Source: an uncultured bacterium
GTDB taxonomy: Bacteria; Fidelibacterota; Marinisomatia; Marinisomatales; UBA1611
Assembly: GCA_964001155.1 (NCBI GenBank)
Contig: CAXFCD010000180.1
Location: 1-39,096 of the forward strand
DNA: 39,096 nt
Direction of reading: 5' to 3'
In this document: positions 19,227 through 39,096 of the stretch, one piece after another
Numbering within the stretch: the stretch's first letter is position 1
How the letters are laid out: each line of letters starts with the position of its first letter
Position numbers and translations under genes: made by a program
Notes under the pieces: generated by a model
Seen by the model: the letters and a program-made list of their open reading frames with translations, nothing else
Told to the model about the DNA's origin: nothing
The model's database searches: none

Positions 19227-21218
19227 CTACTTCATTAATATCATTTTCTTTGTTTGTCTAAACTTTCCTACCTCAATATTGTAGATATAAACTCCTGATG
19301 ACACTAGGTTACCCTCATTATTAGTGGCATCCCATTGGATTGATTTGTACCCTTTAGTTTGCTCTACACTCAATAGATCCCTCACCAAAATACCTAACAT
19401 GTTATATATTTGTACTTTGATAAATGAATCTTCTGGTAAAATATATTCAATAGTTATTACAGGGTTAAATGGATTAGGGTAGGGTTCACCTATTTTAAGC
19501 TGATCCGGATATATATTATCTGATATTTCCGCATTTATTTGTTCAAAGATGATTGACTCAATGTTGAAACCTCCTTGAACAATTTGAATTTTGAAAATGA
19601 TTTCTTCACTGTCTATCTCTACACTTGGTATAACCAAATCTTCCCAATTGTACCACCCGCCGGTGCTAGGAACATTCATTACGCCAATATTCTGCCCATC
19701 TATTTGAGCAAAAAAGATTCCACCAGAACTTGGCGCAGCTACACTAAAGTAAATTTCATAAGCCCCAGGATTTACATCTCCAATTGTATAGCTAAGCCAT
19801 TCTGTCGCATCTGTCCACCCAACATTATAAGGCATCCCATTGGCATCACCATTTGATTCTATATCAACACCGTCATTTCTGAAAGTCCAACCTTCATTAT
19901 AACTTCCGTCTCCATTATTATAGTAATCGCCGTCATGATATGATAAACCCCTAACCCCTATATCATACTCAACTGCTGGAATGATACCCGGTATAGAATG
20001 TAGGTTAAAAGGTTTTGAGACCTCTCCATACTCAGGATCAGTAAGAGAAGCAACTACACCAGGCAGTTGGATACAATTTTCAAGTTTTAAACTATTTGCA
20101 AAATTTAACAGCGCAGCTTGAGCATAAAGTTCAGACGGCTGCGTTCCATTCCCACTCCAATAATCAATGAGTGTTTGGTATTCTGTAGATACAAGAGCTG
20201 AATAAGGGCTTGAAATTTTTTCAACTTTTTTATGCGTCCAAAAATTCCAGCCTATATTATTATCTTCCAAAAGGTTGGAAACCTCATAATACCACTGATT
20301 TGAGTTTTCTCCATACTCACCCATCCAAAGAGGGGTATTGTGTGAATTCCGCATGGCAATATAAGGCTGAATGGTATTTAAAGAAGTTTCTGACCAATAT
20401 TTATGGAAGGAATAGGACATATTATCATCCCAGGGAGGGGTCAGTCCCGTAAAGTCAGTTCCGTACCAGTTGCCTTCAATAAAAATAATATGATTTGTAT
20501 CTACTTCTCGTATTGCATTTGTAATATCAATGTATAGCTGTCTTAAATCGTTTGTACTTATTCCTTCTGGTAAAACGGGTTCATTGATTAAATCATACCC
20601 ACCTATCAATGTTTCATCAGCATAATACTCTGCGATCTCCTGCCAGATCTGTATAGTAAGTTCTTTATACTCATCTTCTAACCACAATCTTGCTGTCCCA
20701 TCACTATCACTGATAGGGCCTCCATTCTGCCCACCGGGAGCACAATGCATATCTAAAATGATATACATATTATAAGTCTCACACCAAGATATGAGTGAAT
20801 CAATAATTGAATATCCAATCGGCATCATCTCATCTGTATGATGAAATTGTTTATAATGAAACGGCACCCTTATATGATTAAAGCCCCACTCTGCTATCTG
20901 ATCAATATCTGTTTGGGCTACATAATTTTCTCTGTATAGATCCCAAAATTCTTCTGCAAAATCATCGTCAACCAGATCAAGGACATGACCTTCGATTTGT
21001 GTTGGAGATTCAAATCCTTCTATCCATGCCTGATTATGTAACATGTAGCCTTCAGGAACAAGCCAACCTCCCAAGCCAAACCCTCTAAGTAATATCGGCT
21101 CACCATTCCCTTCAACAATTTCTGTTCCATCTGCATGTAAGAATCCCTGTGCTGATACAACATGCAGAGAAAGATTTAGAATAAATATCATTCGCATGGC
21201 ATACATTTTCCAAAACAT
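19227..21218 (-). CDS. GH5 glycoside hydrolase (beta-glucanase, exo-1,3-beta-glucanase-like motifs) + CBM6-like module + T9SS CTD
   Basis: GH5 motifs are FNHIRVPFHY, IILDMHCAPGGQNGG, the acid/base in DLINEP and the nucleophile in LWMGEYGE. The CBM6-like module reads GVDIE...VGWTDATEWLSYTIG...PSTGGWYNWEDL. The CTD is YPNPFNPVITIEY...SGVYIYNI...KKMILMK. The start is uncertain: ATGs at 21218, 21206, 21197 or 21191, the last giving an ATGA overlap with the upstream stop. Confidence 0.85.
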   Translation of the reverse strand: MFWKMYAMRMIFILNLSLHVVSAQGFLHADGTEIVEGNGEPILLRGFGLGGWLVPEGYMLHNQAWIEGFESPTQIEGHVLDLVDDDFAEEFWDLYRENYVAQTDIDQIAEWGFNHIRVPFHYKQFHHTDEMMPIGYSIIDSLISWCETYNMYIILDMHCAPGGQNGGPISDSDGTARLWLEDEYKELTIQIWQEIAEYYADETLIGGYDLINEPVLPEGISTNDLRQLYIDITNAIREVDTNHIIFIEGNWYGTDFTGLTPPWDDNMSYSFHKYWSETSLNTIQPYIAMRNSHNTPLWMGEYGENSNQWYYEVSNLLEDNNIGWNFWTHKKVEKISSPYSALVSTEYQTLIDYWSGNGTQPSELYAQAALLNFANSLKLENCIQLPGVVASLTDPEYGEVSKPFNLHSIPGIIPAVEYDIGVRGLSYHDGDYYNNGDGSYNEGWTFRNDGVDIESNGDANGMPYNVGWTDATEWLSYTIGDVNPGAYEIYFSVAAPSSGGIFFAQIDGQNIGVMNVPSTGGWYNWEDLVIPSVEIDSEEIIFKIQIVQGGFNIESIIFEQINAEISDNIYPDQLKIGEPYPNPFNPVITIEYILPEDSFIKVQIYNMLGILVRDLLSVEQTKGYKSIQWDATNNEGNLVSSGVYIYNIEVGKFRQTKKMILMK

Positions 21219-22396
21219 ACAGGATCAAGAATTAAGTCATTTACACCCACAGACAAGAATCTGTCATTATGCTCTCCTGTACTGCAGTCATTATCAGGTG
21301 TTTCCCAGCCATTGGCCCAACTATTCGGGAAATGTCCATTTCTAAACTTATAGGTGAACTCAGAATTAGGTGGTAGTGTTAAAGTAACTTCCCAAATATC
21401 TGAATTATTCTTTTGCTGCATTTTGTATCCTCCAGGCTGCCCGGAACTGATATTTCCTCCTGACAAATACAATCCCGCGCCATTTACATTTACATTTTCC
21501 ATGTCAACCTGAAATGTGACTTTTACATCATTATAATCCTGTGATTTTTTATAGACTCTGACATAATCTACCAGCATTTCCATTGGAAAAGCGCTAGGGT
21601 CAATGCCATTAACACCTCCCCAATCACCGCCAATTGCCAAATTTAAAATGATGTACTGGGGAGCATTGAATGGCCATTTTCCAATATCTTCATCACTGTC
21701 ATTGTAGACAAAGAAAAATGGTTCATTATCAATTAAATACCTCAAATAAGTTTCCGACCATTCTAAAGAATAGGTATGGAATGTATCGGTAGCAGTTGTA
21801 ATTATTTTACTTCCTGATTTTTGAGTATTGTACATATGGTTATAGTCTGCCGTGTGTATGGAGCCGTGGATATTCCCATCATCGAACCCAACATGCTCCA
21901 TGATATCAATCTCTCCACAATGTGGCCATCCAACAGAACTTATATTTTCACCCAACATCCAGATAGCAGGCCAAGAGCCATTTCCTTTTGGAAGTTTTGC
22001 ATGAATATCAAATCTACCATATATCCAGTTTGCTTTATTATCTGTATTTATCCTTCCCGATGTATAATCAGTTGCATATTCGGTACCGGTATAATCCACA
22101 CCATAAAAACCAGGTTCAATTAATCCTCGAATCACCAATTTTCCATCTCGAATAAACAGGTTTGTATCCCGATTTGTATAAGCCTGCGATTCATTATTCA
22201 CATGGCCCGGTTTCCAAAGTAGTTTATTCCACTTAGATTCGTCAATTTCAGATCCTTCAAATTCATCATTCCAAACCATTATCCATTCAGTTTGTTCAAT
22301 TTCTTGGACAGGTGTTGGCAAAGAATCACCACTTTCACATGCTAAAAATAAGGTTAGCATAATTGTCAAAAGTTGCAAATGGCTTAATCTATTCAC
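21188..22396 (-). CDS. GH16 endo-1,3-beta-glucanase (laminarinase-type, canonical strand order), lipoprotein, with a C-terminal beta-sandwich module
   Basis: The GTG at 22394-22396 overlaps the upstream TGA (GTGA). Lipobox LFLAC. Motifs present: VWNDEFEG...SKWN, YTSGRINT, YGRFDIHAKLP, WPAIWMLG, and the catalytic GEIDIMEH (ExDxxE). The C-terminal VTFQVDM...YKFRNG module ends in a Cys-rich tail and there is no T9SS CTD. Confidence 0.9.
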   Translation of the reverse strand: MNRLSHLQLLTIMLTLFLACESGDSLPTPVQEIEQTEWIMVWNDEFEGSEIDESKWNKLLWKPGHVNNESQAYTNRDTNLFIRDGKLVIRGLIEPGFYGVDYTGTEYATDYTSGRINTDNKANWIYGRFDIHAKLPKGNGSWPAIWMLGENISSVGWPHCGEIDIMEHVGFDDGNIHGSIHTADYNHMYNTQKSGSKIITTATDTFHTYSLEWSETYLRYLIDNEPFFFVYNDSDEDIGKWPFNAPQYIILNLAIGGDWGGVNGIDPSAFPMEMLVDYVRVYKKSQDYNDVKVTFQVDMENVNVNGAGLYLSGGNISSGQPGGYKMQQKNNSDIWEVTLTLPPNSEFTYKFRNGHFPNSWANGWETPDNDCSTGEHNDRFLSVGVNDLILDPVCFGKCMPCE

Positions 22397-23946
22397 TTTA
22401 ATAACATTATTTTTTGTACTTGGGAAAAATTCTTACTAGCAAGTTCTGCGAAATATATACCAGTTGGTAATTCGAACCCGGCATCATTTTTCCCATTCCA
22501 TTTAATCTGGTTTGTGCCCAATGAAAATTGGTCCTTTTTTATAGTTCTTACCGGTTGTCCCATCAAATTATAAATAGTAAGCAATGTTGGAAGATTATCT
22601 AAAACATCAAATGATATGGTCGTAATGTTATTAAAAGGATTCGGGAAAACTCTGAAGTTAAATTCGTAACTTGACACCGGCTCTAACATGGAACTTAAAT
22701 TACCAAGGAATAAAGACATATCATCAAAATATGCCGAACCACCGGCATCATTTTCCTGCTCGAAAATAATGGCAACATTCATATTTACTACACCTGTAGG
22801 TGCATTGCCTACAGCACTGATTTGAATCCACTGATCTGTAGGTGATGAACTGTTAATCGGAGATGAAACATATTGTTCGCCTAAAAGATTCCAATTCTCA
22901 TCAAAAAATGTTATTTCCAGAAAGGTACTATTTTCACCAAGTAAAGGGTCGTCAGACGAGACGTAACAGAACCCTGAAAAAACAAACTCTTCTCCCGTAG
23001 CTGGATTGAAGGTCTGATATATCGCAGTTGAATTTGTAATACCTGAATTCTGACCATTTAATTTTAATGATTTATACCCATGTAAAATTGGATCATTTAC
23101 GATTGAATAGTTTGTGAGATTTTCCGGCCAGACTGACCAATGATCAAAATTCGACTCAAAGCCCGCATTATTCAAAATATGCTCTGGCCCTTCCGGTTCA
23201 TAACCGGTATTATTGGGAGTTGTCATACAAAGAATCATCTCTCCTTCGTGGAAGACAACATTTTCTTCAATGAAATCAACATTATTGCCATCCCAGGTGT
23301 GGGTCGCTTTTTCCCACCGATCAGTATTCCAATTATTAAAATCGTCTTCCCAAAGCATGATAAAATTATTATCAGTGCCCGTATTTCCCGATCCAGGAAC
23401 AAAAGCATAATATTTAACCCAATCATAAAATGCATAGACCGGCAGAATATCAGGATTGAATTCACCTACCCAATCCACATAGGTCGGTTGCCAAATATTC
23501 ATCATTAATTTTTGGTAATGATAGAGCGAATCAACATAAAAATTGTCGTCATAACGGACGAGCTCATCATCTACGAAAAAAGCAACATAATCTGGTGTCC
23601 ACTCAAAAGCATAATTATGGTATTCTTCATGTGGATTATATTCTAAATCTATTAATTCAACATGGCTCCATTCATACTGTGTGATAAGGTTCGTCTGAGC
23701 CTTATCATCATAATTCCCGAGCCATTCCCAATCAATTTCATTCCAATGTTGTGATCCAGTATATCCATCTGCCCAATAATCTCTATATGTAAAAAAAGAA
23801 CTCACTACACCGTCACCCGCTGCAGATTTCATTCTTACTTCATATCTTCCATATCTATATGTATCTATTGTACGTAATTCACCTCCACGATAAGGTTTTG
23901 CCATTATTAATGAAATTAAAAAAACAAGTTTTGTGAAAGATTTCAA
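22393..23946 (-). CDS. GH16 beta-glucanase of the circularly permuted lichenase type + CBM4/9-like module + T9SS CTD
   Basis: TTG start at 23944-23946. The N-terminal region reads GGELRTIDTYRYGRYEVRMKSAAGDGVVSSFFTY, with catalytic WNEIDWEWLG (ExDxE). The normally N-terminal GH16 strands sit at the domain end (LWEDDFNNWNTDRWEK...ENVVFHEGEMILCMT). The CBM4_9-like module is NAGFESNFDHWSVW...AYFDDMSL. The CTD is FPNPFNNITT...TGIYFAEL...QKIMLLK. Confidence 0.85.
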   Translation of the reverse strand: MKSFTKLVFLISLIMAKPYRGGELRTIDTYRYGRYEVRMKSAAGDGVVSSFFTYRDYWADGYTGSQHWNEIDWEWLGNYDDKAQTNLITQYEWSHVELIDLEYNPHEEYHNYAFEWTPDYVAFFVDDELVRYDDNFYVDSLYHYQKLMMNIWQPTYVDWVGEFNPDILPVYAFYDWVKYYAFVPGSGNTGTDNNFIMLWEDDFNNWNTDRWEKATHTWDGNNVDFIEENVVFHEGEMILCMTTPNNTGYEPEGPEHILNNAGFESNFDHWSVWPENLTNYSIVNDPILHGYKSLKLNGQNSGITNSTAIYQTFNPATGEEFVFSGFCYVSSDDPLLGENSTFLEITFFDENWNLLGEQYVSSPINSSSPTDQWIQISAVGNAPTGVVNMNVAIIFEQENDAGGSAYFDDMSLFLGNLSSMLEPVSSYEFNFRVFPNPFNNITTISFDVLDNLPTLLTIYNLMGQPVRTIKKDQFSLGTNQIKWNGKNDAGFELPTGIYFAELASKNFSQVQKIMLLK

Positions 23947-27271: not shown

Positions 27272-27283
27272 AAATAGCTTTTA

Positions 27284-28354
27284 TTAAAATGTAGTTGTAA
27301 TTGTATAAATCTCAACATCTCCAAGTAGGCCCATTGTTTTGTAAGCATAATCTATGGAAATAGATTTATTACCTAAATAAAATAATTTTATTCCTAAACC
27401 AGTAGTAATCCCAACATCAGTCCCATCGGGCAATAATTTATTCATTCCGCTTTTAAGACCACCTTTTAAACTAAATATTCCTATTCCGGGGATTTTATTT
27501 TCTAAGGAAACCCCCAAGTTTACTGTTTCATTATTGTTGTTTGGATGGAGAGCATCAGCTGCTAATGTTAATGTAAAATAATTACTTATAATTGGTTGGA
27601 TTGAAAAACCAATCCGAAAAATTAATGGTAATTCCCACTCAGATGTTCGAAACTGTCCAGCAACATCTCCATAATTTCCGTCTTCAAACTCAGAAATATC
27701 AATTGGCTGATAATTATCAATACCATCAAACTTCATTCTAGTACCGTAATTAGAGATACTCATTCCGATGTTCATTCCGTTCTCTTTTTTACCCGTAAAG
27801 GAAAAAAAATCAGTATTGACAATAACGCCTAAATCCACTGCAAATGCATTAGCAGAGCTATGCCAAATATTAGATCTAATATATTTAAATGAAGAACCAA
27901 AAGAGAACCATGATACAATTTTTCTAGAAAAAGAGAATGTTGCAGCCAGATCATTTGCCATAAATTTCTCGCCCGTGCCATCTTGGTATTCCAAAGTTGT
28001 TACTTCCATTTCGCCATAGTCCACCTGTGTAATCCCAAGCCCAAAAACACCAACTCCAGGCATCACAAGTGCCCCACCGGTAAAAAGTAAATCTACATCA
28101 ACTACCCACGGTTGTACCATGAAAAGCGCTGAATTTCTATTTAAGTTAGATAGTCCTGCAGGATTCCAGTATATGGAGGAAACATCATTCACAACTGCTA
28201 CCTGAGCTTCACCCATTGCATTTGCACTGCTTCCAATACCAATTTCCAGAAAATTAGCTGCCGTGGTACCATAACGGTAGATAGTCTGTGCCGACATTTC
28301 CTGAAAATTATTCGTCATTAATATCAAGATTACTATTTTGATGAATCTTATCAT
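27284..28354 (-). CDS. PorV-like / FadL-like outer-membrane beta-barrel (T9SS shuttle protein family)
   Basis: The ATG at 28352-28354 overlaps the upstream TGA as ATGA. Signal peptide ...EMSAQ. The PorV-type N-terminal signature is GTTAANFLEIGIGSSANAMGEAQVAVVNDVSSIYWNPAGLS. Alternating beta strands run to the terminal ...IYTITTTF. Confidence 0.55.
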   Translation of the reverse strand: MIRFIKIVILILMTNNFQEMSAQTIYRYGTTAANFLEIGIGSSANAMGEAQVAVVNDVSSIYWNPAGLSNLNRNSALFMVQPWVVDVDLLFTGGALVMPGVGVFGLGITQVDYGEMEVTTLEYQDGTGEKFMANDLAATFSFSRKIVSWFSFGSSFKYIRSNIWHSSANAFAVDLGVIVNTDFFSFTGKKENGMNIGMSISNYGTRMKFDGIDNYQPIDISEFEDGNYGDVAGQFRTSEWELPLIFRIGFSIQPIISNYFTLTLAADALHPNNNNETVNLGVSLENKIPGIGIFSLKGGLKSGMNKLLPDGTDVGITTGLGIKLFYLGNKSISIDYAYKTMGLLGDVEIYTITTTF

Positions 28355-31872: not shown

Positions 31873-34622
31873 AAATTGATACCTACTGCAAGTTTGATAT
31901 TTCTTGGCGCAGAAAACATGGAAGGGTTTTTTATCCTATCTTCATAAGTGTTATAGGTACTGCGATGACCAGCTAGATCTGTTTCTTGAATAACGGCAGT
32001 ATACGCGCGGCCGGTTTCGCTATTCACCCAATTTTCATTTAACCGATCAAAAAGATTATAAATAGTAAGGTCTATTTTTGCACTATAGTTGCTAAATAAT
32101 TTGAAATTGTAGTAAAGAGTTGCATCTGTAGTATAGGTTGCCGGTTTATAATCATTATTCGGATATAAATTGATCCTGGAAAGAACACTTTCAGACTGCG
32201 GAGTAAAAGTGTACGGAGAACCAGAATTGAAATATGCAGTTATGGTTCCACCAATCTTTTCTCCAAAATACATTAGCGATCCATTCAGAGTATGCCGCTG
32301 ATCCCAACTCATAGGTATAAAACGATTAACCGGATCCATGTTATTTCCAGCTCGAGTGAAACTCTGGGTAGGGTTATCTGCGTTTCCTCTTGTATACTGC
32401 AGTGTGTAATTCACCATCCCCTTTAGGGCTCCATATCCCATATCAAGCTTGACTTCCAATCCACGGGCATTCCCGTAATCTTTATTACTATATAATCCAT
32501 ATTCAATTTGATTATAAGTAGAAATAATTTTGGTACTAAGTAGATTGTAAATATCTCTGTAATACAATGCCACATCAATACCTAATCCTCGAGTAATTTC
32601 CTGCCAAAGTCCAATTTCATATGTAATTGTCTTTTCAGGTTTTAGGAGTGTATTGCCCATCGTGGTGCTATAATCGCTAGGCCCGACCAAAAAACTGCGG
32701 TTCTGATACATAGAGTATAAAGGGGGCATCTGGAAGAAATGTCCATAACTAAAGTGTAATACTGCTTGCGTACCAAGCTGATAAGCAAATCCAATCCTGG
32801 GGCTAGTCTGGTCGATTATAGGCGCATCTGGATATGTTGATGTCATGGAATCTGGAAGGTTTAATTGGTTCGCAGGATTACGTCTGTCAGATGGGTATGG
32901 GCTATTTGGATTAAAATAATCATATCTTAACCCGAGATTAATCACCATTTCATCAAATTCCATTTTATCCTGAATATAAAATGCAAATTCTTTTGGATTA
33001 ACCTTATAAATATCGGCATAAACTGTTGTATCGCCATAAACTACAGGTTTGTATAAATCACCTTCATTTGATTCCCCTTCATATTTATTTCTAATAGAGC
33101 GCCACTTTTGACTAACTCCGTGAGAAATGCCCATGAATCCCAGCTTAAAACTGTGATTATGGTTTGCTTGCCACGTTAAATCAAATTTTGCAGTGGAATC
33201 TATCATCCTAAGCATGCTATGATTTTTCTGCTGACCACCTGTAAAAAAACCAGAACCATAATTTTCGAGATATTTATCATGTATATATGAATATACAGTA
33301 TCACCCGGTAAATGCTCGTTCCCATCGGGGTAGATACCTGCAGTATCAGCTATGATATAATCAGTTGGATTTTTAAATAAATAATTTCCTGAAAAATTGT
33401 CTAAAAGAGAAATTTTGAGCTCATAAAATAGTTCCGGAGAAATCATATGATTTAGCTGGAAGGAACTATAAGTTGTCTCTTTGTGGGATGGGGCCCTACC
33501 ATCAGGGTTATATTTAAATGCATGATCATAACCAAACCAGGTATCATTTGTTTCAGACTGTAATAGAGAAACCCGGATTCCATCAAATAAATTGAAACTT
33601 AACTTAAATAAGGCTGAAAAGTTTTCACCCGTATTCATTGGTACATACGAACTATCCCCTGATTGTGAATATACCCAAGTTGTTGAATCATCTGAATAAA
33701 AATCACTCGTATCTGTAACCGTAAACATTCTGATCCCATTCAGGTGCCCCTTGTTATCCTGCACACGTATATTGGTAAAAAAAGTAATTTTTTCTCCAAG
33801 TAATGGACCACCTAAACTGAATTTTAAATCCTGGCTTCGATTAAGCTCCGGCTGAAGTGCATCATTTGATAATCCAATAAAAATATCTTCACCATCTTCA
33901 TGTTTATTATTGGTATTAAAAAAGGAAAAAGCACCAGATACAGATCCTTCAAATTTTGGCCCGCCATCTCGAGTAACAACATTTACAACCCCGCTCATCG
34001 CTCTGCCATATTCGGCATTAAAGGTTCCGGTTATTACTTCTAAATCCTGTACCGCTTCCGGTTGTATTTCCATTGCAGCACTACTCCCTCCAAAAGTTTC
34101 ATCTACCTGAACCCCGTCAATCATGTAGGTAACTTCCGTATTCCTTCCTCCACGGAAATGACCATTAACCACTCCCGCCTGCATATTGATCACTGAGCCT
34201 ACACTTTCCACTGGTAGTGCATTAATCTCATCGCCTGATATATTTTTTATGGTCCCGGTCTGGTCTTTTTTCTGAGACAACCGTGCTACTTCAACAGTAA
34301 TCACTTCCCCTTCAATTACCGTTTGTGTCATTTCAACCTCAATGGAGGATGTCCTGTTTACTGAAACAACCACTTCATCAACCCGCACAGAAATATAGCC
34401 TATCATATCTACCTTTAGGTCATATTTACCCGGTGGAATATTGATCATTGTAAATCTGCCCATCTCGTCCGCTGCTGTACCATAAGGTGTATTAATAAGA
34501 TATACATTTGCACCAATCAAGGGACTTGAACTGGATTGTTCTTTAACAACACCAGAAATTTTCCCCGTTGTTTGAGACAAGGGAAAGGAAATAATTAACG
34601 AATATATAAGCTTTTTAATCAT
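31869..34622 (-). CDS. TonB-dependent outer-membrane transporter with an N-terminal carboxypeptidase-regulatory-like domain
   Basis: 917 aa. The CarbopepD_reg-like domain is GKISGVVKE...PLIGANVYLINTPYGTAADEMGRFTMINIPPGKYDLKVDMIGY. The plug region is ISGDEINALPVESVGSVINMQAGVV...FRGGRNTEVTYMIDGVQV. A long beta barrel ends in ...KLAVGINF with a terminal Phe. Confidence 0.9.
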   Translation of the reverse strand: MIKKLIYSLIISFPLSQTTGKISGVVKEQSSSSPLIGANVYLINTPYGTAADEMGRFTMINIPPGKYDLKVDMIGYISVRVDEVVVSVNRTSSIEVEMTQTVIEGEVITVEVARLSQKKDQTGTIKNISGDEINALPVESVGSVINMQAGVVNGHFRGGRNTEVTYMIDGVQVDETFGGSSAAMEIQPEAVQDLEVITGTFNAEYGRAMSGVVNVVTRDGGPKFEGSVSGAFSFFNTNNKHEDGEDIFIGLSNDALQPELNRSQDLKFSLGGPLLGEKITFFTNIRVQDNKGHLNGIRMFTVTDTSDFYSDDSTTWVYSQSGDSSYVPMNTGENFSALFKLSFNLFDGIRVSLLQSETNDTWFGYDHAFKYNPDGRAPSHKETTYSSFQLNHMISPELFYELKISLLDNFSGNYLFKNPTDYIIADTAGIYPDGNEHLPGDTVYSYIHDKYLENYGSGFFTGGQQKNHSMLRMIDSTAKFDLTWQANHNHSFKLGFMGISHGVSQKWRSIRNKYEGESNEGDLYKPVVYGDTTVYADIYKVNPKEFAFYIQDKMEFDEMVINLGLRYDYFNPNSPYPSDRRNPANQLNLPDSMTSTYPDAPIIDQTSPRIGFAYQLGTQAVLHFSYGHFFQMPPLYSMYQNRSFLVGPSDYSTTMGNTLLKPEKTITYEIGLWQEITRGLGIDVALYYRDIYNLLSTKIISTYNQIEYGLYSNKDYGNARGLEVKLDMGYGALKGMVNYTLQYTRGNADNPTQSFTRAGNNMDPVNRFIPMSWDQRHTLNGSLMYFGEKIGGTITAYFNSGSPYTFTPQSESVLSRINLYPNNDYKPATYTTDATLYYNFKLFSNYSAKIDLTIYNLFDRLNENWVNSETGRAYTAVIQETDLAGHRSTYNTYEDRIKNPSMFSAPRNIKLAVGINF

Positions 34623-34673
34623 TTGGATTAAATAACATATTTTTTTATTGTAAATATTTTACTAAAAGATAAT

Positions 34674-34710
34674 TAAAAAAAGAGGGGCAATTAATTGCCC
34701 CTCTTTTTTG
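34674..34710 (-). terminator. Rho-independent terminator downstream of the 1146-aa gene (symmetrical, flanked by an A-run and a T-run)
   Basis: AGAGGGGCAAT (34681-34691) pairs perfectly with ATTGCCCCTCT (34694-34704). An A7 run lies on one side and T6 on the other, so the minus-strand transcript ends in hairpin + U-run 12 nt after the stop at 34723. Confidence 0.75.
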
Positions 34711-34722
34711 ACTTGTTATTAG

Positions 34723-37700
34723 TTATTTCACTAATAGCATTTTTTGGGTAATGGCACTACTCCCCGATATCAATTTATAAAAATATACTCCGGATGCCAT
34801 GTTCCCAGCATTCCATTTTGCAGTATGAAGACCTGCTTGTAATTCACGATCTATTAATGTCACAACTTCCTGTCCCACAATATTATACAGTTTAAGGGTA
34901 ACCTGCTGTGTTTCAGGAATTGAAAACTTAATCGTAGTCGCCGGATTGAATGGATTCGGATAATTCGGATATAGTGCAAACTCATATGCCACCATACCAT
35001 CTTCATGATCGATCGAAACCATCGATTGATCACCAATCCACGTTGTGGACCATACGCTGGGAGTTTGCCATGCGTTATCAGCATTTGTTGGAGAAGCAAC
35101 AAGATTTCCTTCCCAGCCATTCCCATCATTATCATGGAATGTAGGCTCTATGGGTATTCTCATACCGTTTAAAGCATTGAGTCTGATATCATCTCCAAAA
35201 GCAATATCATCTAAAGATAATCTTGCTTCTAATATGTAGTCAGGATCTAAACCTTCATGGAAATAATTACCATCTCCATTGACTGCTAATGTATCTTGGC
35301 TATTAAAATCATTTACTGCATGTGTTTCCAAGAAATAGAATTTATAATCAGGTTCGTCTCCACGTTCCATACCACCATGTTTTGCACCACGTTGATCATA
35401 AAAACCAATAAATAACTCAAATACATCATTCTCCCACCAACCATTGGTTCCATCTCCAGCTTGATATCCATCATAGACATCGTCAATTACATCTGCAGCA
35501 ATGTATAAATAGTCTTCATCAACTGCGAGCCAAATTTCACCTGATAGGTCATCATCACTATCTACATCTCCTACAATGCTTGGTGTACCCCAGGAATTAT
35601 CTTCGGTACCAAGAAAGAAAGGCTCAATGTCACTATCATACCATTCATCTAAATCTCCATCTGCAGCAAAATCAGCCGGCACTGAGAGTGATATTGTTGG
35701 AATTCCTTTGGCCATGTTACTAATTGAACCTTCGGATGAACCTGGTTCACCCACATTGTTTGACGCATCTTCACAAATAACTGCATAATGGTAAGAAACA
35801 TTTACATCTTCAAGTGGATTAAACAAATAATGTACTGCGGCCTGACTGCCTTCAAGTACACCGGTTGCTACCACATCTGCAGCCGCCAATGATAACGAAT
35901 CCGTTATCGGTTCCATGCTTGCGTAGACATTATAGGATTCACCACTTTCACCATCCACATCTGACCATGTGACTAGATTATAGTATGATGCAGGGGTAGC
36001 AGAAACATTTTCTACTGCTGCAGGAGGGACAACATCAAGAACTCCAACATTCATGAGAAACATGTCATCAAAGGCAAAATCACAGGGCACACCATCCCAG
36101 CGGGATGCTACAATTACTGCAGTCATTTGTACAGTGCCTTGAGGCATGACAAATTCAACAGTGTGATTTTCCCATTCATCTGTCATTGTTAAAGCAACAT
36201 CACCAGTCGATTCTAAAACATTGCCTGCGGCATCTTTTGCTTCAAGCTTAAAAAAGGCTCCAGCTTCTTCGCCATTTACACTTTTTCCAAATCCACTAAA
36301 ACTCCAAGTCTCACCATACGCAGCAGGGATACTGTCTTCAGTGTAATATACTGCCCAGTTATCTGTAACACCGATACTGAGATAATTATCGCCTGAGTAC
36401 GCCATAGATGCATCTGTAATCACTTCTGCATGTCCGCCGCCCATTGCAACGCCCCATCCAAAATCATCATCATTTTCATCTGCCAATTCAAAGCCTGGGT
36501 TGGTCAACACATTCTTTGAACCTGTCAATTTGAAATCATCTAGAACAATTGTGCCATTAGCATAGTCACCATCTCCACCACCACTGATTGAAAATTCTAA
36601 GTGAAAACCTGCAATAGCATCTTTATCCAATTCACCATTACCAGCTTCTCCCGCCCAACCAGTTAGATTAAATCCACCACCGTCCCAAGAATCATTTCTT
36701 TCAAGAGGCATTGTAATGGTATTCCAACCTGGTTCATTGTCTAAAATATAATGGAATGAATAGTAATATTCTCCAAGTCCAGTATAGTTATCGGGATCAG
36801 ATACATCACCAAAGTCACTAAGATTTAACCTTAAATGGACTCTATCTTGCAAGGATTGTGAAACTGAATTGTAGTAAGAAAATGAAATACTGTCATATCC
36901 TGACCAGTCCCATAGTTCACCATGGTTTCTGTTTTCAATGATTGACATCCAGTCCTCACTCCAATCGTCTCTTATAACCGCTGAACGATATTCTGTTACA
37001 GTCACGTCCGTTAATGTAACTGGAGCATCTGGAGTTGTTACGTACAGCAGGAATGAGCTAAAGGTATTTTCACCCTGTGCTGGAATCTCTACTGAGTAAG
37101 ATGATGTTTCTCCAGTATTTTCTTCATTAACGGTTACGGACTCTGTGTTAAAACTTGGCTCAGTGTCTGGGTATGGGTTATACTCAAACCTGAAATACAA
37201 TTCCACATCTGTCGTATAATTTGCACCTGTAAAAGTGATTAAACCACCGTTCGGGAAGGTAAATGGATAAAGACTCGTATCTTCGTTGGCAAAGCCTCCC
37301 CATGATTCAGCCCCTGTTGGAAATGTATAAGTATTCCCATCAACTATTGTACCACCAAATGCACCCGAGAATACGATTCCTGTATCCGTATCATCTCCAC
37401 CATAATCACTTACAAGTTTAAAAGTCCAGAATACGCCTGCACCTGATTCGATAACAAGCGTCATGGTTTGATTGTCATTTGATAATGTTACTTCATATGT
37501 AATTGATTCTGGAACGGCCACATCGGGTAATTGCCCTTCATTATTTGCTTTAGGAAGACCTAAATAAGCACCAACTCCACTAAGTGTCACCTGACCTGTG
37601 CCTGCATTAAACTCCCATGTAGCTGGATTTGAACCATCATGCGGCGCTACAGGTGCCCCACACTGATCTGCTTCTACACCCTGCCAAACTTCAAGCCAAG

Positions 37701-38163
37701 TCTCAGGCCCTTGAACATTCTGGAAGGATCCATCTGCACCAAATACATACTCATCATCAAAGTAGCATGCGCGCGTGGTAACATCTTCTTCTGTGTTGGA
37801 CCACCAGCTGCCATCGTTAGGAGCCGGACCAACCATTAATGCACCTGCTTCCGGAGCCATCATCCAGGTACCTTCAAGAGGAGAACTAGGTTCACCAGCC
37901 ATCATATGAAAAATTTTAGCATAACCACCCCATGCTTCTATATTGTGCGCACTGTAATCAAGCTGCATTGCCCCCGATCCTTCATACAATGGATCAACAA
38001 CATAACTCACATTAACATAACTAAGTGTAGTGTCGGCATTTTCAGAAATCTCATAGCCCCAATAGTCTGCAGCAGGCTCGGAATCAAAATTATCAATCGT
38101 CTGTCCGAAAATGAAAAAGGGAACGGCTAAAAAGACTAAAAATGATATCTTATTATTCATCAT
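34723..38163 (-). CDS. 1146-aa acidic multi-domain surface protein: several putative carbohydrate-binding modules (CBM4/9-like, CBM9-like), Fn3 and a T9SS CTD; no recognisable catalytic domain
   Basis: ATG at 38161-38163 is preceded by AAGGAGA 7 nt upstream. Signal peptide MMNNKISFLVFLAVPFFIFGQ. The CBM4_9-like module is NPGFELADENDDDFGWGV...FAFDDMFL. The Fn3-like module is VENVSATPASYYNLVTWSDV...YNVYAS. The CBM9-like module is DGDLDEWYDS...IWLAVDEDYLYIAADVIDD...NDVFELFIGFYD. The CTD is YPNPFNPATTIKF...SGVYFYKL...QKMLLVK. Confidence 0.8.
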   Translation of the reverse strand: MMNNKISFLVFLAVPFFIFGQTIDNFDSEPAADYWGYEISENADTTLSYVNVSYVVDPLYEGSGAMQLDYSAHNIEAWGGYAKIFHMMAGEPSSPLEGTWMMAPEAGALMVGPAPNDGSWWSNTEEDVTTRACYFDDEYVFGADGSFQNVQGPETWLEVWQGVEADQCGAPVAPHDGSNPATWEFNAGTGQVTLSGVGAYLGLPKANNEGQLPDVAVPESITYEVTLSNDNQTMTLVIESGAGVFWTFKLVSDYGGDDTDTGIVFSGAFGGTIVDGNTYTFPTGAESWGGFANEDTSLYPFTFPNGGLITFTGANYTTDVELYFRFEYNPYPDTEPSFNTESVTVNEENTGETSSYSVEIPAQGENTFSSFLLYVTTPDAPVTLTDVTVTEYRSAVIRDDWSEDWMSIIENRNHGELWDWSGYDSISFSYYNSVSQSLQDRVHLRLNLSDFGDVSDPDNYTGLGEYYYSFHYILDNEPGWNTITMPLERNDSWDGGGFNLTGWAGEAGNGELDKDAIAGFHLEFSISGGGDGDYANGTIVLDDFKLTGSKNVLTNPGFELADENDDDFGWGVAMGGGHAEVITDASMAYSGDNYLSIGVTDNWAVYYTEDSIPAAYGETWSFSGFGKSVNGEEAGAFFKLEAKDAAGNVLESTGDVALTMTDEWENHTVEFVMPQGTVQMTAVIVASRWDGVPCDFAFDDMFLMNVGVLDVVPPAAVENVSATPASYYNLVTWSDVDGESGESYNVYASMEPITDSLSLAAADVVATGVLEGSQAAVHYLFNPLEDVNVSYHYAVICEDASNNVGEPGSSEGSISNMAKGIPTISLSVPADFAADGDLDEWYDSDIEPFFLGTEDNSWGTPSIVGDVDSDDDLSGEIWLAVDEDYLYIAADVIDDVYDGYQAGDGTNGWWENDVFELFIGFYDQRGAKHGGMERGDEPDYKFYFLETHAVNDFNSQDTLAVNGDGNYFHEGLDPDYILEARLSLDDIAFGDDIRLNALNGMRIPIEPTFHDNDGNGWEGNLVASPTNADNAWQTPSVWSTTWIGDQSMVSIDHEDGMVAYEFALYPNYPNPFNPATTIKFSIPETQQVTLKLYNIVGQEVVTLIDRELQAGLHTAKWNAGNMASGVYFYKLISGSSAITQKMLLVK

Positions 38164-38505
38164 GATATCTCCTTGTTGTTTATTTTTCTGTTTTCACAGT
38201 TTTTTTCATCAAAAGCTACAATGCCTATCGTGAATAATTTTGAACCTAGATCATTTTGAATTACAGCTAATAGTGAAATTCCATATATAGGTTTTGACAC
38301 ATTTGGTGGCAATGACGCTAAAATATCTTAAAACAATATAAAACATAATGAAAATAAATGCAATAATTTTTCTTTTATTTTCATTAACATGCAAATTATA
38401 TGTAATTTATTTGCAAATATTGTGAATAATTTTTACTTTCCTGTGATTTTTTAGTTCTATTTATTCGTAATATGGGAACAATTTTAGTAGGATTTATTTG
38501 GTCAT
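38164..38505. promoter_or_regulatory. Divergent AT-rich control region between the 1146-aa glycan-binding gene and the LacI-family regulator; contains repeat elements
   Basis: 342 bp with no long ORF. There is an 11-bp perfect inverted repeat, ATGAAAATAAA (38348-38358) / TTTATTTTCAT (38374-38384). A 12-bp exact direct repeat GTGAATAATTTT occurs at 38230-38241 and 38422-38433. TGCAAAT is repeated at 38390 and 38412. I cannot place the promoters with confidence. Confidence 0.4.
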
Positions 38506-39096
38506 ATGAGAGTCACATTAAAACATATATCAGACGATACGGGCCTATCAATTGCCACAGTTTCTCGCGCATTAAGTCGCAAGGAAAGAACCCATAGTCC
38601 CAATGAAAAACAGATTTTAGAATCAGCAATGAAACTTGGGTACCCCATTTTCAATAATTCTATTGTCCAATACAAGACACCTATTGCCCTAGTTATAAAG
38701 CTTTTTGAGGGTGAGTTCTACGCATATTTATTAAATGGTTTTTACCAAGCTGCTCATGATTCCAATACTAAAATTAATTTACATGTTATAAAAGATGATT
38801 TAAATCCTGTTGATCAAATTATTCAACTTAGTAAAAATCACAGCGGTATCTGTTTGTTCTTGCCTTCGATGACTAATGATGATTATCTCAAAATCAAAGA
38901 AGGAGTAGGGCAGTATCCAATTATATCACTTTTACCATCAAAAAATCCAAAAATTGATACAGTATGTTTTGATTCCTATCGTGGTGGTTATATGATGGCT
39001 AAACATTTTGAAGAAAAAGGTTTTAAAAAGTTCGGTTTTATTTCTGGGCCATCTAAGCGAGCAGATGCGTTATATAGAAAAAATGGATTTTTAGAC
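38506..39096 (+). CDS. LacI-family transcriptional regulator, 3'-truncated by the window edge
   Basis: This gene is not in the ORF track because it has no stop in the window. It is open from the ATG at 38506 to the end (197 codons). The N-terminal HTH is MRVTLKHISDDTGLSIATVSRALSRKE. A periplasmic-binding-fold sugar-sensor body follows (VCFDSYRGGYMMAKHFEEKGFKKFGFISGP...ADALYRKNGF). Confidence 0.85.
   Translation, partial: MRVTLKHISDDTGLSIATVSRALSRKERTHSPNEKQILESAMKLGYPIFNNSIVQYKTPIALVIKLFEGEFYAYLLNGFYQAAHDSNTKINLHVIKDDLNPVDQIIQLSKNHSGICLFLPSMTNDDYLKIKEGVGQYPIISLLPSKNPKIDTVCFDSYRGGYMMAKHFEEKGFKKFGFISGPSKRADALYRKNGFLD

What the first reader, a model, noticed from the sequence alone, without database searches (positions are those of the whole stretch)
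19227..39096. SusD-less, T9SS-dependent beta-glucan utilisation locus under a LacI-type regulator
About 20 kb of co-directional genes. A 1146-aa multi-CBM protein forms its own unit with its own SD and terminator. Eight genes then run from 34622 to 19227 with no gap above 40 nt: TBDT, 1173-aa unknown, PorV-like, SurA-like, GH16, GH16, GH16, GH5. A divergent LacI regulator closes the locus. The enzyme set is one ExDxxE laminarinase, two ExDxE lichenase-type GH16s and a GH5 with exo-1,3-beta-glucanase-like motifs, together with CBM6, CBM4/9, malectin-like and CBM9-like modules. This argues for laminarin and/or mixed-linkage beta-glucan as substrate. Unlike Bacteroidetes PULs there is no SusD lipoprotein and no SusC-type pairing. 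Three of the four enzymes and the big binding protein are instead routed to the surface by Por-type C-terminal domains. Functionally this is a PUL, but it is built from different parts.
Basis: partly seen in the sequence, partly recalled or inferred. Interest (0 to 1): 0.75.

Follow-up and report, generated by a model that had tools for sequence, protein, structure and literature searches.

The report
SusD-less beta-glucan locus with TBDT–PorV-like triad
A marine Marinimicrobia (SAR406) genome carries a real beta-glucan/laminarin utilisation operon whose outer-membrane importer is paired not with a SusD lipoprotein but with an unannotated 1173-residue surface protein and its own PorV-like barrel, a three-gene module that recurs next to many different sugar-degrading genes in several non-Bacteroidota phyla.

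Summary
The substrate call holds. There is one GH16 laminarinase (a lipoprotein), two GH16 lichenases circularly permuted like the Fibrobacter succinogenes enzyme, and one GH5 of unresolved subfamily. No SusD or SusC/RagA signature was found. The two candidate hidden SusDs are an all-beta multidomain protein and a SurA/PrsA-fold lipoprotein.

New here: TBDT, the 1173-aa protein ("BIG") and the PorV/PorQ-family barrel form a tightly coupled triad. It is conserved in 66/67 and 65/71 related loci from Marinimicrobia, Calditrichota, KSB1/Zhuqueibacterota and Ignavibacteriota. It also flanks 11 distant BIG homologues that sit next to GH130, GH125, GH13, GH18/GH85 and GH2/GH3/GH92 genes. BIG has no Pfam, NCBIfam or PDB sequence match. 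Its family spans 3,391 clusters at 50% identity. Its conserved C-terminus is a divergent T9SS sorting domain, and its best fold matches are PorZ and PorU, which keep their sorting domains and dock on PorQ/PorV.

Best model (inferred): a T9SS-exported surface partner, tethered by a cognate PorV-like barrel, replaces SusD. I found no publication describing this.

The parts
38506..39096 (+). LacI-family transcriptional regulator, N-terminal 197 aa only (cut by the window end), divergent from the locus
   Evidence: NCBIfam LacI-family models match at E 5.7e-13 to 1e-5. The Pfam LacI HTH scores 19 bits, below its cut-off of 27. Full-length orthologues of 329-342 aa hold the same divergent position in L013, L014, L015, L022, L062, L065, L070 and L076.
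38164..38505 (.). Divergent intergenic control region. It holds the AAGGAG ribosome-binding site of the 1146-aa gene and a weak candidate LacI operator (TGCAAA/TTTGCA half-sites at 38390-38426).
   Evidence: Read directly from the sequence. The half-sites cluster here. Related palindromes lie in the same intergenic region of L015, L023, L026 and L062. The window-wide count of the motif is not above chance, so this part is tentative.
34723..38163 (-). 1146-aa secreted multi-CBM surface glycan-binding protein (CBM4_9, CBM9, type-A T9SS sorting domain); its own transcription unit
   Evidence: Pfam hits are CBM9_1 at 6.5e-11, CBM_4_9 at 8.9e-6 and Por_Secre_tail at 2.7e-10, with TIGR04183 at 2e-12. 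A homologue sits just upstream of the TBDT in 40/47 related loci.
34676..34709 (-). Intrinsic terminator after the 1146-aa gene
   Evidence: It has a 15-bp stem with 6 GC pairs followed by a T-run, and is the only strong terminator-like site in 18900-38600.
31869..34622 (-). TonB-dependent transporter, 917 aa, with an N-terminal CarboxypepD_reg extension, plug and barrel; not SusC/RagA family
   Evidence: Pfam hits are PF00593 at 5e-30, PF13715 at 7.3e-15 and PF07715 at 3.2e-9. No TIGR04056 SusC/RagA hit appears in NCBIfam. No PDB sequence match at E<=1e-3.
28351..31872 (-). 'BIG': 1173-aa unannotated secreted protein. It is an all-beta multidomain protein built from an N-terminal beta-sandwich with acidic Ca-binding-type loops, an FN3-like domain, variable beta domains and a divergent T9SS sorting domain. 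Proposed surface partner of the TBDT.
   Evidence: - No Pfam, NCBIfam or PDB sequence hit.
- AlphaFold2 model: pLDDT 88.3, pTM 0.77.
- Foldseek top matches: PorZ 5M11 at E 1.7e-7 and PorU 6ZA2 at 3.8e-5.
- C-terminal domain against type-A sorting domains by hhalign: probability 97.8%, E 7.8e-13.
- Family size: 3,391 clusters at 50% identity.
- Its start overlaps the TBDT stop by 4 nt.
27284..28354 (-). PorV/PorQ-family 14-strand-type outer-membrane barrel, a locus-specific paralogue; proposed anchor for BIG
   Evidence: NF033709 scores 189 bits against a cut-off of 90. It fails the PorV equivalog (86 against 250) and the PorQ equivalog (78 against 220). It matches PDB PorV 6H3I at 7.9e-8. Its start overlaps the BIG stop by 4 nt. 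A homologue lies directly downstream of BIG in 65/71 related loci, with a modal gap of -4.
25790..27271 (-). 493-aa SurA/PrsA-fold lipoprotein (chaperone domain plus parvulin-like domain)
   Evidence: - The lipobox cysteine C17 is invariant.
- AlphaFold2 model: pLDDT 82.5, pTM 0.80.
- Foldseek matches LIC12922, SurA in the BAM complex and PrsA proteins, all at probability ~1.0. No SusD or TPR match appears.
- A homologue lies within 6 kb downstream of BIG in 49/53 related loci.
23987..25789 (-). GH16 lichenase-type (EIDVE) enzyme with a malectin-like domain and a type-A T9SS sorting domain
   Evidence: Pfam hits are GH16 at 6.8e-17, Malectin at 1.5e-14 and Por_Secre_tail at 2.1e-8. It matches the F. 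succinogenes 1,3-1,4-beta-glucanase 2R49/1MVE at 1.4e-43, residues 20-238 against 6-229.
22393..23946 (-). GH16 lichenase-type (EIDWE) enzyme with a type-A T9SS sorting domain, circularly permuted like the Fibrobacter enzyme
   Evidence: It matches 3AXD at 8e-46, residues 14-251 against 2-238, collinear over the full length. It is 44% identical to its neighbour's catalytic domain. Por_Secre_tail hits at 1.2e-8.
21188..22396 (-). GH16 laminarinase-type (EIDIME) enzyme. It is a lipoprotein (LFLAC|ESGDS), has no T9SS sorting domain, and carries a C-terminal beta domain with a weak CBM20-like hit.
   Evidence: It matches the Rhodothermus laminarinase 3ILN at 8.1e-61 and many further endo-1,3-beta-glucanases. 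Pfam GH16 hits at 5.1e-23. The lipobox was read from the translation.
19227..21218 (-). GH5 enzyme with CBM6/35 and a type-A T9SS sorting domain; last gene of the operon
   Evidence: Pfam hits are Cellulase at 6.1e-30, CBM_6 at 1.4e-10 and Por_Secre_tail at 2.7e-8. PDB matches are 9KU5 at 1.5e-33, CelC at 7.6e-25 and exo-1,3-beta-glucanases at 1e-13 to 3e-18. The CBM6 resembles the laminarin-binding CBM6s 5FUI and 1W9S.

Best explanation
This is the beta-glucan (laminarin and mixed-linkage 1,3-1,4-glucan) utilisation locus of a Marinimicrobia bacterium.

**At the cell surface.**
- The multi-CBM protein, two permuted lichenases and the GH5 carry type-A sorting domains. They are exported and displayed by the type IX secretion system. 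This step is inferred.
- The laminarinase is lipid-anchored.
- Together these enzymes cut the polymer into oligosaccharides.

**Uptake.** The oligosaccharides are taken up by a TonB-dependent transporter that works as a three-protein unit, proposed as follows (all inferred):
- The 1173-aa protein BIG is exported by the T9SS.
- BIG keeps its unusually conserved, divergent sorting domain.
- Through that domain BIG stays docked on the PorV/PorQ-family barrel encoded next to it. PorZ on PorQ, PorU on PorV, and type-B cargo on PorP/SprF barrels are anchored in the same way.
- The barrel sits beside the TBDT and holds BIG over it, as a SusD-like lid or glycan-capture partner.

**Accessory parts.**
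- The SurA/PrsA-fold lipoprotein chaperones these large outer-membrane and surface components in the periplasm (inferred).
- A divergent LacI-family repressor probably controls the locus in response to a beta-gluco-oligosaccharide (inferred).

**What is shown and what is inferred.**
- Shown: the gene content, the predicted folds, the synteny, the coupling between genes and the portability of the triad.
- Inferred: the physical complex, retention of the sorting domain, glycan binding by BIG, and the regulation.
For: **Enzyme specificities.** Orthologous loci add GH3, GH30, an SSF symporter and a ROK kinase.

**The triad in related loci.**
- The stop and start codons overlap by 4 nt at both junctions.
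- In 80 related loci a TBDT lies directly upstream of BIG in 66/67.
- A PorV-like gene lies downstream in 65/71, with a modal gap of -4 nt.

**The triad at distant BIG homologues (30-40% identity).**
- All 11 have a PorV-like gene immediately downstream.
- Ten of 11 have a recognisable TBDT upstream. The eleventh upstream gene is cut by the contig end.
- These loci carry GH130 with an ABC transporter, GH125 with MFS and ROK, GH13 with CBM20/X25, GH18/GH85 with NamZ, or GH16/GH2/GH3/GH92.

**Copy number.** The triad occurs in several copies per genome: L005 and L011 come from one MAG, L027 and L028 come from one MAG, and L082 has two tandem triads.

**BIG itself.**
- The model is confident and all-beta.
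- Its best fold matches are PorZ and PorU.
- Its C-terminal domain is homologous to type-A sorting domains (hhalign 97.8%).
- That domain is among the best conserved parts of the family, unlike an ordinary cleaved signal.

**Precedents from the literature.**
- PorU and PorZ retain their sorting domains and are held on PorV and PorQ (PMC5562754).
- Cognate PorV-like barrels are proposed to protect sorting domains from cleavage (PMC10202324).
- In the Bacteroides BAM complex, the FadL/PorV-like barrel BamG binds the back of BamA and holds a surface protein (PMC12578637).

**No SusD.**
Against: - No direct evidence exists for a physical TBDT-BIG-barrel complex, for retention of the sorting domain, or for glycan binding by BIG.
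- BIG is the most conserved protein of the locus across phyla: 51-63% identity, against 46-60% for the TBDT and 34-41% for the chaperone. That is unlike SusD proteins and hints at a more constrained role, possibly mechanical or enzymatic.
- The least conserved region of BIG (781-1060) is not especially conserved among beta-glucan orthologues. So there is no signal of a substrate-specificity module.
- Foldseek TM-scores are low (0.06-0.18). The matches are to individual domains, not to the whole architecture.
- The T9SS core genes are not in the window.
- The GH5 subfamily is unresolved.
- The LacI operator is not established.
- The locus lacks an inner-membrane transporter and a GH3 within the window.
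Confidence: 0.6

Rival explanations
1. BIG and the PorV-like barrel form a locus-specific T9SS attachment or sorting module, a PorZ/PorQ-like pair. It would process or anchor the sorting-domain-bearing enzymes encoded nearby, and would not be a partner of the TBDT in uptake.
For: The best fold matches of BIG are PorZ and PorU, both components of the T9SS attachment complex. The adjacent barrel belongs to the PorV/PorQ family. Four T9SS cargo proteins are encoded in the same locus.
Against: - The pair is almost never separated from a TBDT: 66/67 related loci and 10/11 distant ones.
- It is translationally coupled to that TBDT.
- Triads occur in loci with no visible sorting-domain cargo. L082 has two triads with MFS, ROK and GH125. 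L081 has GH130 with an ABC transporter.
- BIG has none of the beta-propeller or protease features that define PorZ and PorU. The similarity is carried by Ig/FN3-like and sorting-domain-like parts, with low TM-scores.
Confidence: 0.15
2. BIG is itself a new surface enzyme, such as a glycanase or an oligosaccharide-processing enzyme. It would act upstream of the TBDT, and the PorV-like barrel would merely anchor it.
For: - BIG is unusually well conserved across phyla, with many invariant Asp, Glu, Trp and Tyr residues.
- Its N-terminal beta-sandwich resembles the N-terminal domains of GH116 and GH94 enzymes (TxGH116 probability 0.99, laminaribiose phosphorylase 0.84).
Against: - The same conserved N-terminal two thirds occurs in loci for chemically unrelated glycans: alpha-glucan, mannosides, and chitin or peptidoglycan. 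That argues against a substrate-specific catalytic site.
- The invariant acidic residues fall in DxDxDG-type loops, which are typical of structural calcium sites.
- The GH116 and GH94 similarity is to their non-catalytic sandwich domains.
Confidence: 0.1
3. The transporter is an Oar-like exporter rather than an importer, and the triad serves secretion or envelope biogenesis. The link to CAZymes would then reflect export of those enzymes.
For: The TBDT has the Oar-type architecture, with an N-terminal CarboxypepD_reg domain and a hit to PF25183 OMP_b-brl_4. A SurA-like chaperone is co-encoded. From my own knowledge, Myxococcus Oar is a TBDT needed for protein secretion.
Against: Neighbouring genes are uptake and catabolic genes: SSF, MFS and ABC sugar transporters, ROK kinases, and periplasmic-type GH3, GH130 and GH125 enzymes. 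The enzymes already carry T9SS signals or lipoboxes for export.
Confidence: 0.05
4. The gene neighbourhood is a conserved but functionally loose cluster. The TBDT, BIG, the barrel and the chaperone would act independently of one another.
For: No experimental data exist for any member of the family. No publication was found that describes it.
Against: The order is kept, with 4-nt overlaps, across at least four phyla, at 30-85% identity and in many substrate contexts. That is hard to explain without a shared function and balanced stoichiometry.
Confidence: 0.05

Closest known systems
Bacteroidota polysaccharide utilisation loci (SusC/SusD type), e.g. laminarin PULs of marine Flavobacteriia
   Same: - CAZymes, surface glycan-binding proteins, a TonB-dependent transporter and a regulator are co-localised and co-directional.
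- The TBDT carries an N-terminal CarboxypepD_reg-type extension.
- The enzyme set across orthologous loci (GH16, GH3, GH30) matches laminarin PULs.
- Many enzymes are routed by the T9SS, as in Flavobacteriia and Cytophagia.
   Different: - There is no SusD-like lipoprotein, and the TBDT is not of the SusC/RagA family.
- The gene after the TBDT encodes a 1173-aa all-beta protein with a T9SS-type C-terminus, followed by a PorV-like barrel and a SurA-like lipoprotein.
- The regulator is LacI-type rather than HTCS, ECF or SusR.
CUT loci (carbohydrate utilisation loci containing TBDTs) of Xanthomonas, Caulobacter and Alteromonadales (from my own knowledge)
   Same: These are SusD-less loci that combine a TBDT with CAZymes, often under LacI-family repressors and with an inner-membrane symporter nearby.
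   Different: They have no T9SS, no sorting-domain-bearing enzymes and no PorV-like barrel. They also lack a large conserved surface protein coupled to the transporter.
T9SS cargo-barrel pairs: PorZ-PorQ, PorU-PorV, and type-B sorting-domain proteins with PorP/SprF-like barrels
   Same: A secreted protein with an uncleaved C-terminal sorting domain is held on the cell surface by a cognate PorV-like barrel. For type-B cargo the barrel is encoded next to it (PMC5562754, PMC10202324). BIG's best fold matches are PorZ and PorU, and its neighbour is a PorV/PorQ-family barrel.
   Different: - Here the pair is fused into an operon with a TonB-dependent transporter.
- The pair is multiplied per genome in nutrient-uptake loci.
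- BIG shares no recognisable sequence family with PorZ, PorU or SprB.
- Its barrel meets neither the PorV nor the PorQ equivalog threshold.
Bacteroidota BAM complex, BamA-BamG-BamH (PMC12578637)
   Same: A 14-stranded FadL/PorV-like barrel binds the wall of a larger barrel and holds a surface-exposed protein through its extracellular loops. This is a structural precedent for the proposed TBDT-barrel-BIG arrangement.
   Different: The function is different (outer-membrane protein assembly) and the proteins are different. The resemblance is architectural only and was not tested here.
Clostridium thermocellum celC-glyR3-licA operon (from my own knowledge)
   Same: It combines a GH5 (CelC, the second-best solved relative of the GH5 here), a GH16 beta-1,3/1,4-glucanase and a LacI-family repressor that responds to laminaribiose.
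   Different: It belongs to a Gram-positive organism, so there is no outer membrane, TBDT or T9SS.

Membership tests
Bacteroidota PUL (SusC/SusD pair) | A SusD-like (RagB/SusD, TPR-rich all-alpha) lipoprotein encoded next to the transporter | tested here: not met
   No SusD Pfam family (PF07980, PF12741, PF12771, PF14322) hit any ORF of the window at E<=0.01 or 0.001. The model of the 1173-aa protein is all-beta. The 493-aa lipoprotein has a SurA/PrsA fold.
Bacteroidota PUL (SusC/SusD pair) | Transporter of the SusC/RagA family (TIGR04056) | tested here: not met
   The NCBIfam scan of the TBDT lists 13 TonB-receptor models but not TIGR04056. No PDB SusC-like sequence matches at E<=1e-3.
Bacteroidota PUL (SusC/SusD pair) | Co-localised CAZymes, glycan-binding proteins and a regulator in one co-directional cluster | tested here: met
   
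T9SS type-A cargo | C-terminal sorting domain matching PF18962/TIGR04183 above threshold | tested here: met
   GH5, both lichenase-type GH16s and the 1146-aa CBM protein score 34-41 bits (Pfam cut-off 27) and 37-47 bits (TIGR04183 cut-off 23).
T9SS type-A cargo | The same criterion applied to the 1173-aa protein BIG | tested here: inconclusive
   No Pfam or NCBIfam hit. However, a profile-profile comparison of its C-terminal 108 residues with the type-A domains of this and related loci gives probability 97.8% and E 7.8e-13 over 56 columns. The domain carries an insertion of about 20 residues after the PNPY motif.
T9SS-dependent secretion | The organism encodes the T9SS core (SprA/Sov, PorK/L/M/N, PorU) | not testable with these tools
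   These genes are not in the window. There is only indirect support, from six type-A sorting-domain proteins in 39 kb.
PorV/PorQ family outer-membrane barrels | Match to NF033709 above its cut-off | tested here: met
   189.1 bits against a cut-off of 90, covering 326/326 profile positions. It matches PDB PorV 6H3I at 7.9e-8.
PorV proper / PorQ proper | Match to the equivalog models NF033710 (PorV) or NF033711 (PorQ) above cut-off | tested here: not met
   86.1 bits against 250 and 78.1 bits against 220. It is therefore a distinct paralogue.
Cognate cargo-barrel pairs (PorZ-PorQ type) | The sorting domain is retained and bound non-covalently to the barrel | not testable with these tools
   Only adjacency, 4-nt coupling and high conservation of the domain are shown.
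GH16 laminarinase (endo-1,3-beta-glucanase type) | ExDxxE catalytic motif and closest relatives that are characterised laminarinases | tested here: met
   EIDIME was read from the translation. It matches 3ILN at 8.1e-61 and more than 20 further endo-1,3-beta-glucanase structures. Activity was not tested.
GH16 lichenase (1,3-1,4-beta-glucanase type) | ExDxE motif and collinear similarity to characterised lichenases | tested here: met
   The motifs are EIDWE and EIDVE. Both proteins match the naturally permuted F. succinogenes enzyme over its full length (8e-46 and 1.4e-43). Bacillus-type enzymes match only over the permuted half.
GH5 | Family membership, and a subfamily that predicts specificity | tested here: inconclusive
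   Family membership is clear (PF00150, 105 bits). The subfamily is not. The best solved relatives are 9KU5 (annotated as a putative beta-xylosidase), CelC, then exo-1,3-beta-glucanases. No dbCAN subfamily models were available.
SurA/PrsA/PpiD chaperones | N-terminal helical chaperone domain plus a parvulin domain | tested here: met
   Foldseek gives probability ~1.0 to LIC12922, SurA (9HGA, 1M5Y) and many PrsA structures, plus isolated parvulins. Pfam SurA_N_2 scores only 20 bits, below its cut-off of 28.5. PPIase activity residues were not examined.
LacI-family repressors | N-terminal HTH plus a periplasmic-binding-protein-like sugar-binding core | tested here: inconclusive
   Only 197 residues lie in the window. 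LacI-family NCBIfam models align over residues 2-196 at up to 5.7e-13. The Pfam HTH is below cut-off. Orthologues elsewhere are full length.

The most novel reading that the evidence does not exclude
TBDT, BIG and the PorV-like barrel form a previously undescribed class of outer-membrane glycan-import complex. In it, a T9SS-exported protein that retains its sorting domain is tethered to a dedicated PorV-family barrel and takes the place of the SusD lipoprotein. This module would be the general, substrate-independent counterpart of SusC/SusD in Marinimicrobia, Calditrichota, KSB1/Zhuqueibacterota and Ignavibacteriota. That would link type IX secretion mechanically to nutrient uptake.
Probability: 0.45. 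Interest if true: 0.88.

Novelty: new variant of a known kind. Interest (0 to 1): 0.78.

Why it matters
- **Carbon cycle.** Laminarin is one of the largest carbon fluxes in the ocean. Marinimicrobia (SAR406) are abundant, uncultured and poorly understood. This locus gives them a concrete and apparently common route to algal beta-glucans: homologues of its proteins appear in hundreds of marine metagenome contigs.
- **PUL prediction.** Current PUL prediction relies on SusC/SusD pairs. It is therefore blind to whole phyla of the FCB group.
- **A usable marker.** The triad of TBDT, BIG and PorV-like barrel would serve as a marker for polysaccharide loci in those phyla.
- **A testable mechanism.** If the proposed docking is right, it shows a second evolutionary solution to capping a glycan transporter, built from T9SS parts. 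Caldithrix abyssi and Melioribacter roseus carry orthologues and are cultured, so this can be tested directly.

Tried and rejected
1. **SusD hidden in an unknown protein: rejected.** This follows from the Pfam/NCBIfam scans and from the two AlphaFold2 models with Foldseek.
I repeated it with database homologues.
3. **PDB sequence searches.** BIG, the TBDT and the 1146-aa protein gave nothing.
4. **Rfam scan of the window.** No hits. In particular there is no TPP riboswitch near the thiamin pyrophosphokinase and SSF pair.
5. **LacI operator hunt.** TGCAAA/TTTGCA half-sites cluster at 38390-38426, and related palindromes occur in orthologous intergenic regions. The window-wide count is not above chance (10 found, 4.7 expected; 2 of 100 shuffles reach 10). 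I left this as tentative.
6. **Variable region of BIG (781-1060) as a substrate-specificity module.**
   - It is the least conserved region both among beta-glucan orthologues and family-wide.
   - Its ratio between the two sets is no different from that of the other regions.
   - The test therefore gives no support.
7. **Sigma-70 promoter scan.** Not informative: 72 sites found against 81 expected.
8. **Literature searches for a prior description of the cassette.**
   - Search terms covered Marinimicrobia, Caldithrix, Melioribacter, KSB1, PorV with TonB, and PorV-like.
   - None was found.
   - The library omits most subscription journals, so absence is not proof.
9. **Look-up of the Caldithrix abyssi orthologue's contig by exact sequence.** It failed.

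Full report
**1. Observation**

Nine minus-strand genes run from 38163 down to 19227, and a plus-strand ORF starts at 38506 and is cut by the window end. Within the eight-gene block from 34622 to 19227 the junctions are -4, -4, 12, 0, 40, -4 and -31 nt.

The 1146-aa gene is a separate unit. It has AAGGAG 5 nt upstream of its ATG. It is followed by a 15-bp-stem, T-tailed hairpin at 34676-34709, the only strong terminator-like site in the 20 kb.

Best homologues of the proteins are labelled Candidatus Marinimicrobia/Neomarinimicrobiota and come largely from marine metagenomes. The rest of the window is ordinary chromosome: FabH, MMPL, glycolysis genes and acetyl-CoA synthetase.

**2. Enzymes and binding modules**

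Pfam and NCBIfam give the following.

- The GH5 carries CBM6/35 and a type-A T9SS sorting domain.
- A 402-aa GH16 has the motif EIDIME. Its best solved relative is the Rhodothermus laminarinase 3ILN (8.1e-61), followed by more than 20 endo-1,3-beta-glucanases.
- Two GH16s have the motifs EIDWE and EIDVE. Their catalytic domains are 44% identical to each other.
- Both of these match the Fibrobacter succinogenes 1,3-1,4-beta-glucanase collinearly over its full length (8e-46 and 1.4e-43). Bacillus-type lichenases match only over the second half. So both share the natural circular permutation of the Fibrobacter enzyme.
- The GH5 is clearly GH5, but its specificity is open. Its best matches are 9KU5, then CelC, then exo-1,3-beta-glucanases. 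Its CBM6 resembles laminarin-binding CBM6s.
- The laminarinase has no sorting domain. It has a lipobox instead (LFLAC|ESGDS).

Orthologous loci add GH3, GH30, an SSF symporter and a ROK kinase. In some lineages a sigma-54 response regulator stands in the position of LacI. This completes a laminarin/beta-glucan pathway. The substrate reading is therefore well supported, although no enzyme was assayed.

**3. Is a SusD hidden?**

No SusD family and no SusC/RagA model hit anything in the window.

- **The 1173-aa protein (BIG).** I modelled it from a 66-sequence alignment. The model has pLDDT 88.3 and pTM 0.77, and is almost entirely beta. Foldseek against the PDB ranks PorZ (5M11, E 1.7e-7, probability 1.0) and PorU (6ZA2, 3.8e-5) first. 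FN3 arrays and the N-terminal sandwich of GH116 follow.
- **The 493-aa protein.** It is a lipoprotein with an invariant Cys17. Its model (pLDDT 82.5, pTM 0.80) matches SurA, PrsA and the leptospiral SurA-like protein LIC12922 at probability ~1.0. It contains a parvulin-like domain.

Neither protein is SusD-like.

**4. The unexpected part: a portable triad**

BIG has no Pfam, NCBIfam or PDB sequence match. Yet it belongs to a large family. An exhaustive search found 3,391 clusters at 50% identity with E<=1e-3, and 386 with E<=1e-30. [quoted passage not shown] One named member is Caldithrix abyssi Calab_3088.

In 80 genome loci from Marinimicrobia, Calditrichota, KSB1/Zhuqueibacterota and Ignavibacteriota (including Melioribacter roseus) the gene order is kept. 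It runs CBM protein, TBDT, BIG, PorV-like barrel, SurA-like lipoprotein, then GH16 and GH5 genes. The counts are:

| Feature | Loci with the feature |
|---|---|
| TBDT directly upstream of BIG | 66/67 |
| PorV-like gene downstream of BIG (modal spacing -4 nt) | 65/71 |
| Chaperone within 6 kb downstream | 49/53 |
| CBM protein just upstream of the TBDT | 40/47 |

I also looked up ten loci holding eleven distant BIG homologues (30-40% identity). All eleven have a PorV-like gene immediately downstream. Ten have a recognisable TBDT upstream. The neighbouring genes differ from locus to locus:

- GH130 with an ABC transporter
- two tandem triads with MFS, ROK and GH125
- a CBM20/X25 protein with GH13
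- GH18/GH85 with NamZ, an S66 peptidase and SSF
- GH16, GH2, GH3 and GH92 with a rotamase-containing chaperone

The triad is thus a substrate-independent module, present in several copies per genome. It plays the positional role that SusC/SusD plays in Bacteroidota.

**5. Anatomy of BIG**

After a signal peptide, the alignments and the model define these regions:

- a beta-sandwich region (about 31-340 and 471-580)
- an inserted acidic segment (341-470) rich in invariant DxDxDG-type motifs (D346/D348/D350/E355, D421/G423/D425/G426, D464/E467/D469), typical of structural calcium sites
- an FN3-like domain (about 581-780)
- a poorly conserved set of beta domains (781-1060)
- a well conserved C-terminal domain (1061-1173)

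A profile-profile comparison shows that the C-terminal domain is homologous to the type-A T9SS sorting domains of this and related loci. The probability is 97.8% and the E-value 7.8e-13. The domain carries an insertion of about 20 residues.

Ordinary sorting domains are cleaved signals and evolve fast. This one is among the most conserved parts of the family. The adjacent barrel passes the PorV/PorQ family model (189 bits against 90) but fails both the PorV and the PorQ equivalogs. It is therefore a dedicated paralogue.

**6. Mechanism proposed**

Published work provides three precedents.

- PorU and PorZ keep their sorting domains and are held on the surface by PorV and PorQ (PMC5562754).
- Cognate PorV-like barrels are proposed to protect sorting domains from cleavage, as for type-B cargo with PorP/SprF barrels (PMC10202324).
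- In the Bacteroides BAM complex, a FadL/PorV-like barrel binds the wall of BamA and holds a surface protein (PMC12578637).

By analogy, I propose that BIG is exported by the T9SS and remains docked through its sorting domain on the adjacent barrel. That barrel would pack against the TBDT, so that BIG covers or feeds the transporter. The SurA/PrsA-like lipoprotein would assist biogenesis of these large components.

The sorting-domain-bearing enzymes and the CBM protein, together with the lipid-anchored laminarinase, would generate oligosaccharides at the surface. A LacI-type repressor would control expression.

The shown steps are the gene content, the folds, the homology of the sorting domain, the coupling and the portability. 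The inferred steps are the complex, retention of the domain, binding by BIG, and the regulation.

**7. Points against, and rival readings**

- BIG is the most conserved protein of the locus across phyla. That is unlike SusD and leaves room for an enzymatic or mechanical role.
- Its variable region shows no orthologue-specific conservation.
- Foldseek TM-scores are low, because the matches are to single domains.

The rival readings are a locus-specific T9SS attachment module, a new surface enzyme, an Oar-like exporter, and mere adjacency. I weigh them in the rival section of this report. The invariant coupling to a TBDT argues against the first and third, and so do the triads in loci with no visible T9SS cargo and the catabolic and uptake neighbours.

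**8. Comparison with known systems, and novelty**

- As a SusD-less locus combining a TBDT and CAZymes under a LacI regulator, it belongs to a known kind (CUT loci; from my own knowledge).
- It fails two defining tests for a Bacteroidota PUL: there is no SusD, and the TBDT is not SusC/RagA.
- The pairing of BIG with its barrel works like PorZ-PorQ or like type-B cargo with PorP. It is not a member of those families.
- I found no paper that describes the triad. The searchable library is incomplete, so this is not proof of absence.

I rate the finding as a new variant of a known kind. It has a substantial chance of marking a new class of outer-membrane uptake complex.

**9. Verdict**

Noticed in passing
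window 16000-19200: This stretch has low GC (0.275-0.32, against about 0.38-0.42 elsewhere). It holds DUF2490 (16535-17182), DUF4956 (17213-17803), a VTC-domain protein (17816-18601) and a lamin-tail-domain protein (18579-19193), directly downstream of the GH5 gene. It could be a polyphosphate-related or horizontally acquired cassette.
   Followed up: no
window 9868-16208: A cluster of glycolysis genes lies next to the glucan locus. It comprises a class-I aldolase, a PFK, and two tandem GAPDH paralogues whose ORFs overlap (14191-15255 and 15189-16208). An acetyl-CoA synthetase lies between them on the other strand.
   Followed up: no
window 7364-9402: A thiamin pyrophosphokinase and an SSF symporter sit side by side. 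The same pairing is described for a TPP-riboswitch-controlled locus in Caldithrix abyssi (PMC5317091). No riboswitch or any other Rfam family was detected in the window at gathering thresholds.
   Followed up: partly
window 772-3875: Two further proteins carry type-A T9SS sorting domains: a leucine-rich-repeat protein (772-1920) and an arylsulfotransferase-like protein (1827-3875). That makes six such cargo proteins in 39 kb.
   Followed up: no
window 38390-38426; L015, L023, L026, L062 LacI-CBM intergenic regions: TGCAAA/TTTGCA-type half-sites recur here, for example TGCAAAAAATTTGCA and ATTGCAT(N)TGCAAT. They could be the LacI operator. In the window they are imperfect, and the motif count is not above chance.
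   Followed up: partly
L082 265-14297: This metagenome contig carries two complete triads (TBDT, BIG homologue, PorV-like barrel) in tandem, followed by MFS, ROK and GH125 genes. This shows that the module duplicates within a locus.
   Followed up: partly
L084 20941-22806: In a distant locus the chaperone position is filled by a 621-aa protein with detectable rotamase (parvulin) Pfam domains. This suggests that the 493-aa protein in the window is a derived member of a true PPIase-chaperone lineage.
   Followed up: no
L033, L036, L045, L048, L055 (record titles): Some loci with the same cassette come from MAGs labelled Cytophagia, Lentisphaeria or Caldisericaceae. These labels may be binning or labelling errors, or they may mean a wider distribution of the module, possibly including Bacteroidota.
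   Followed up: no
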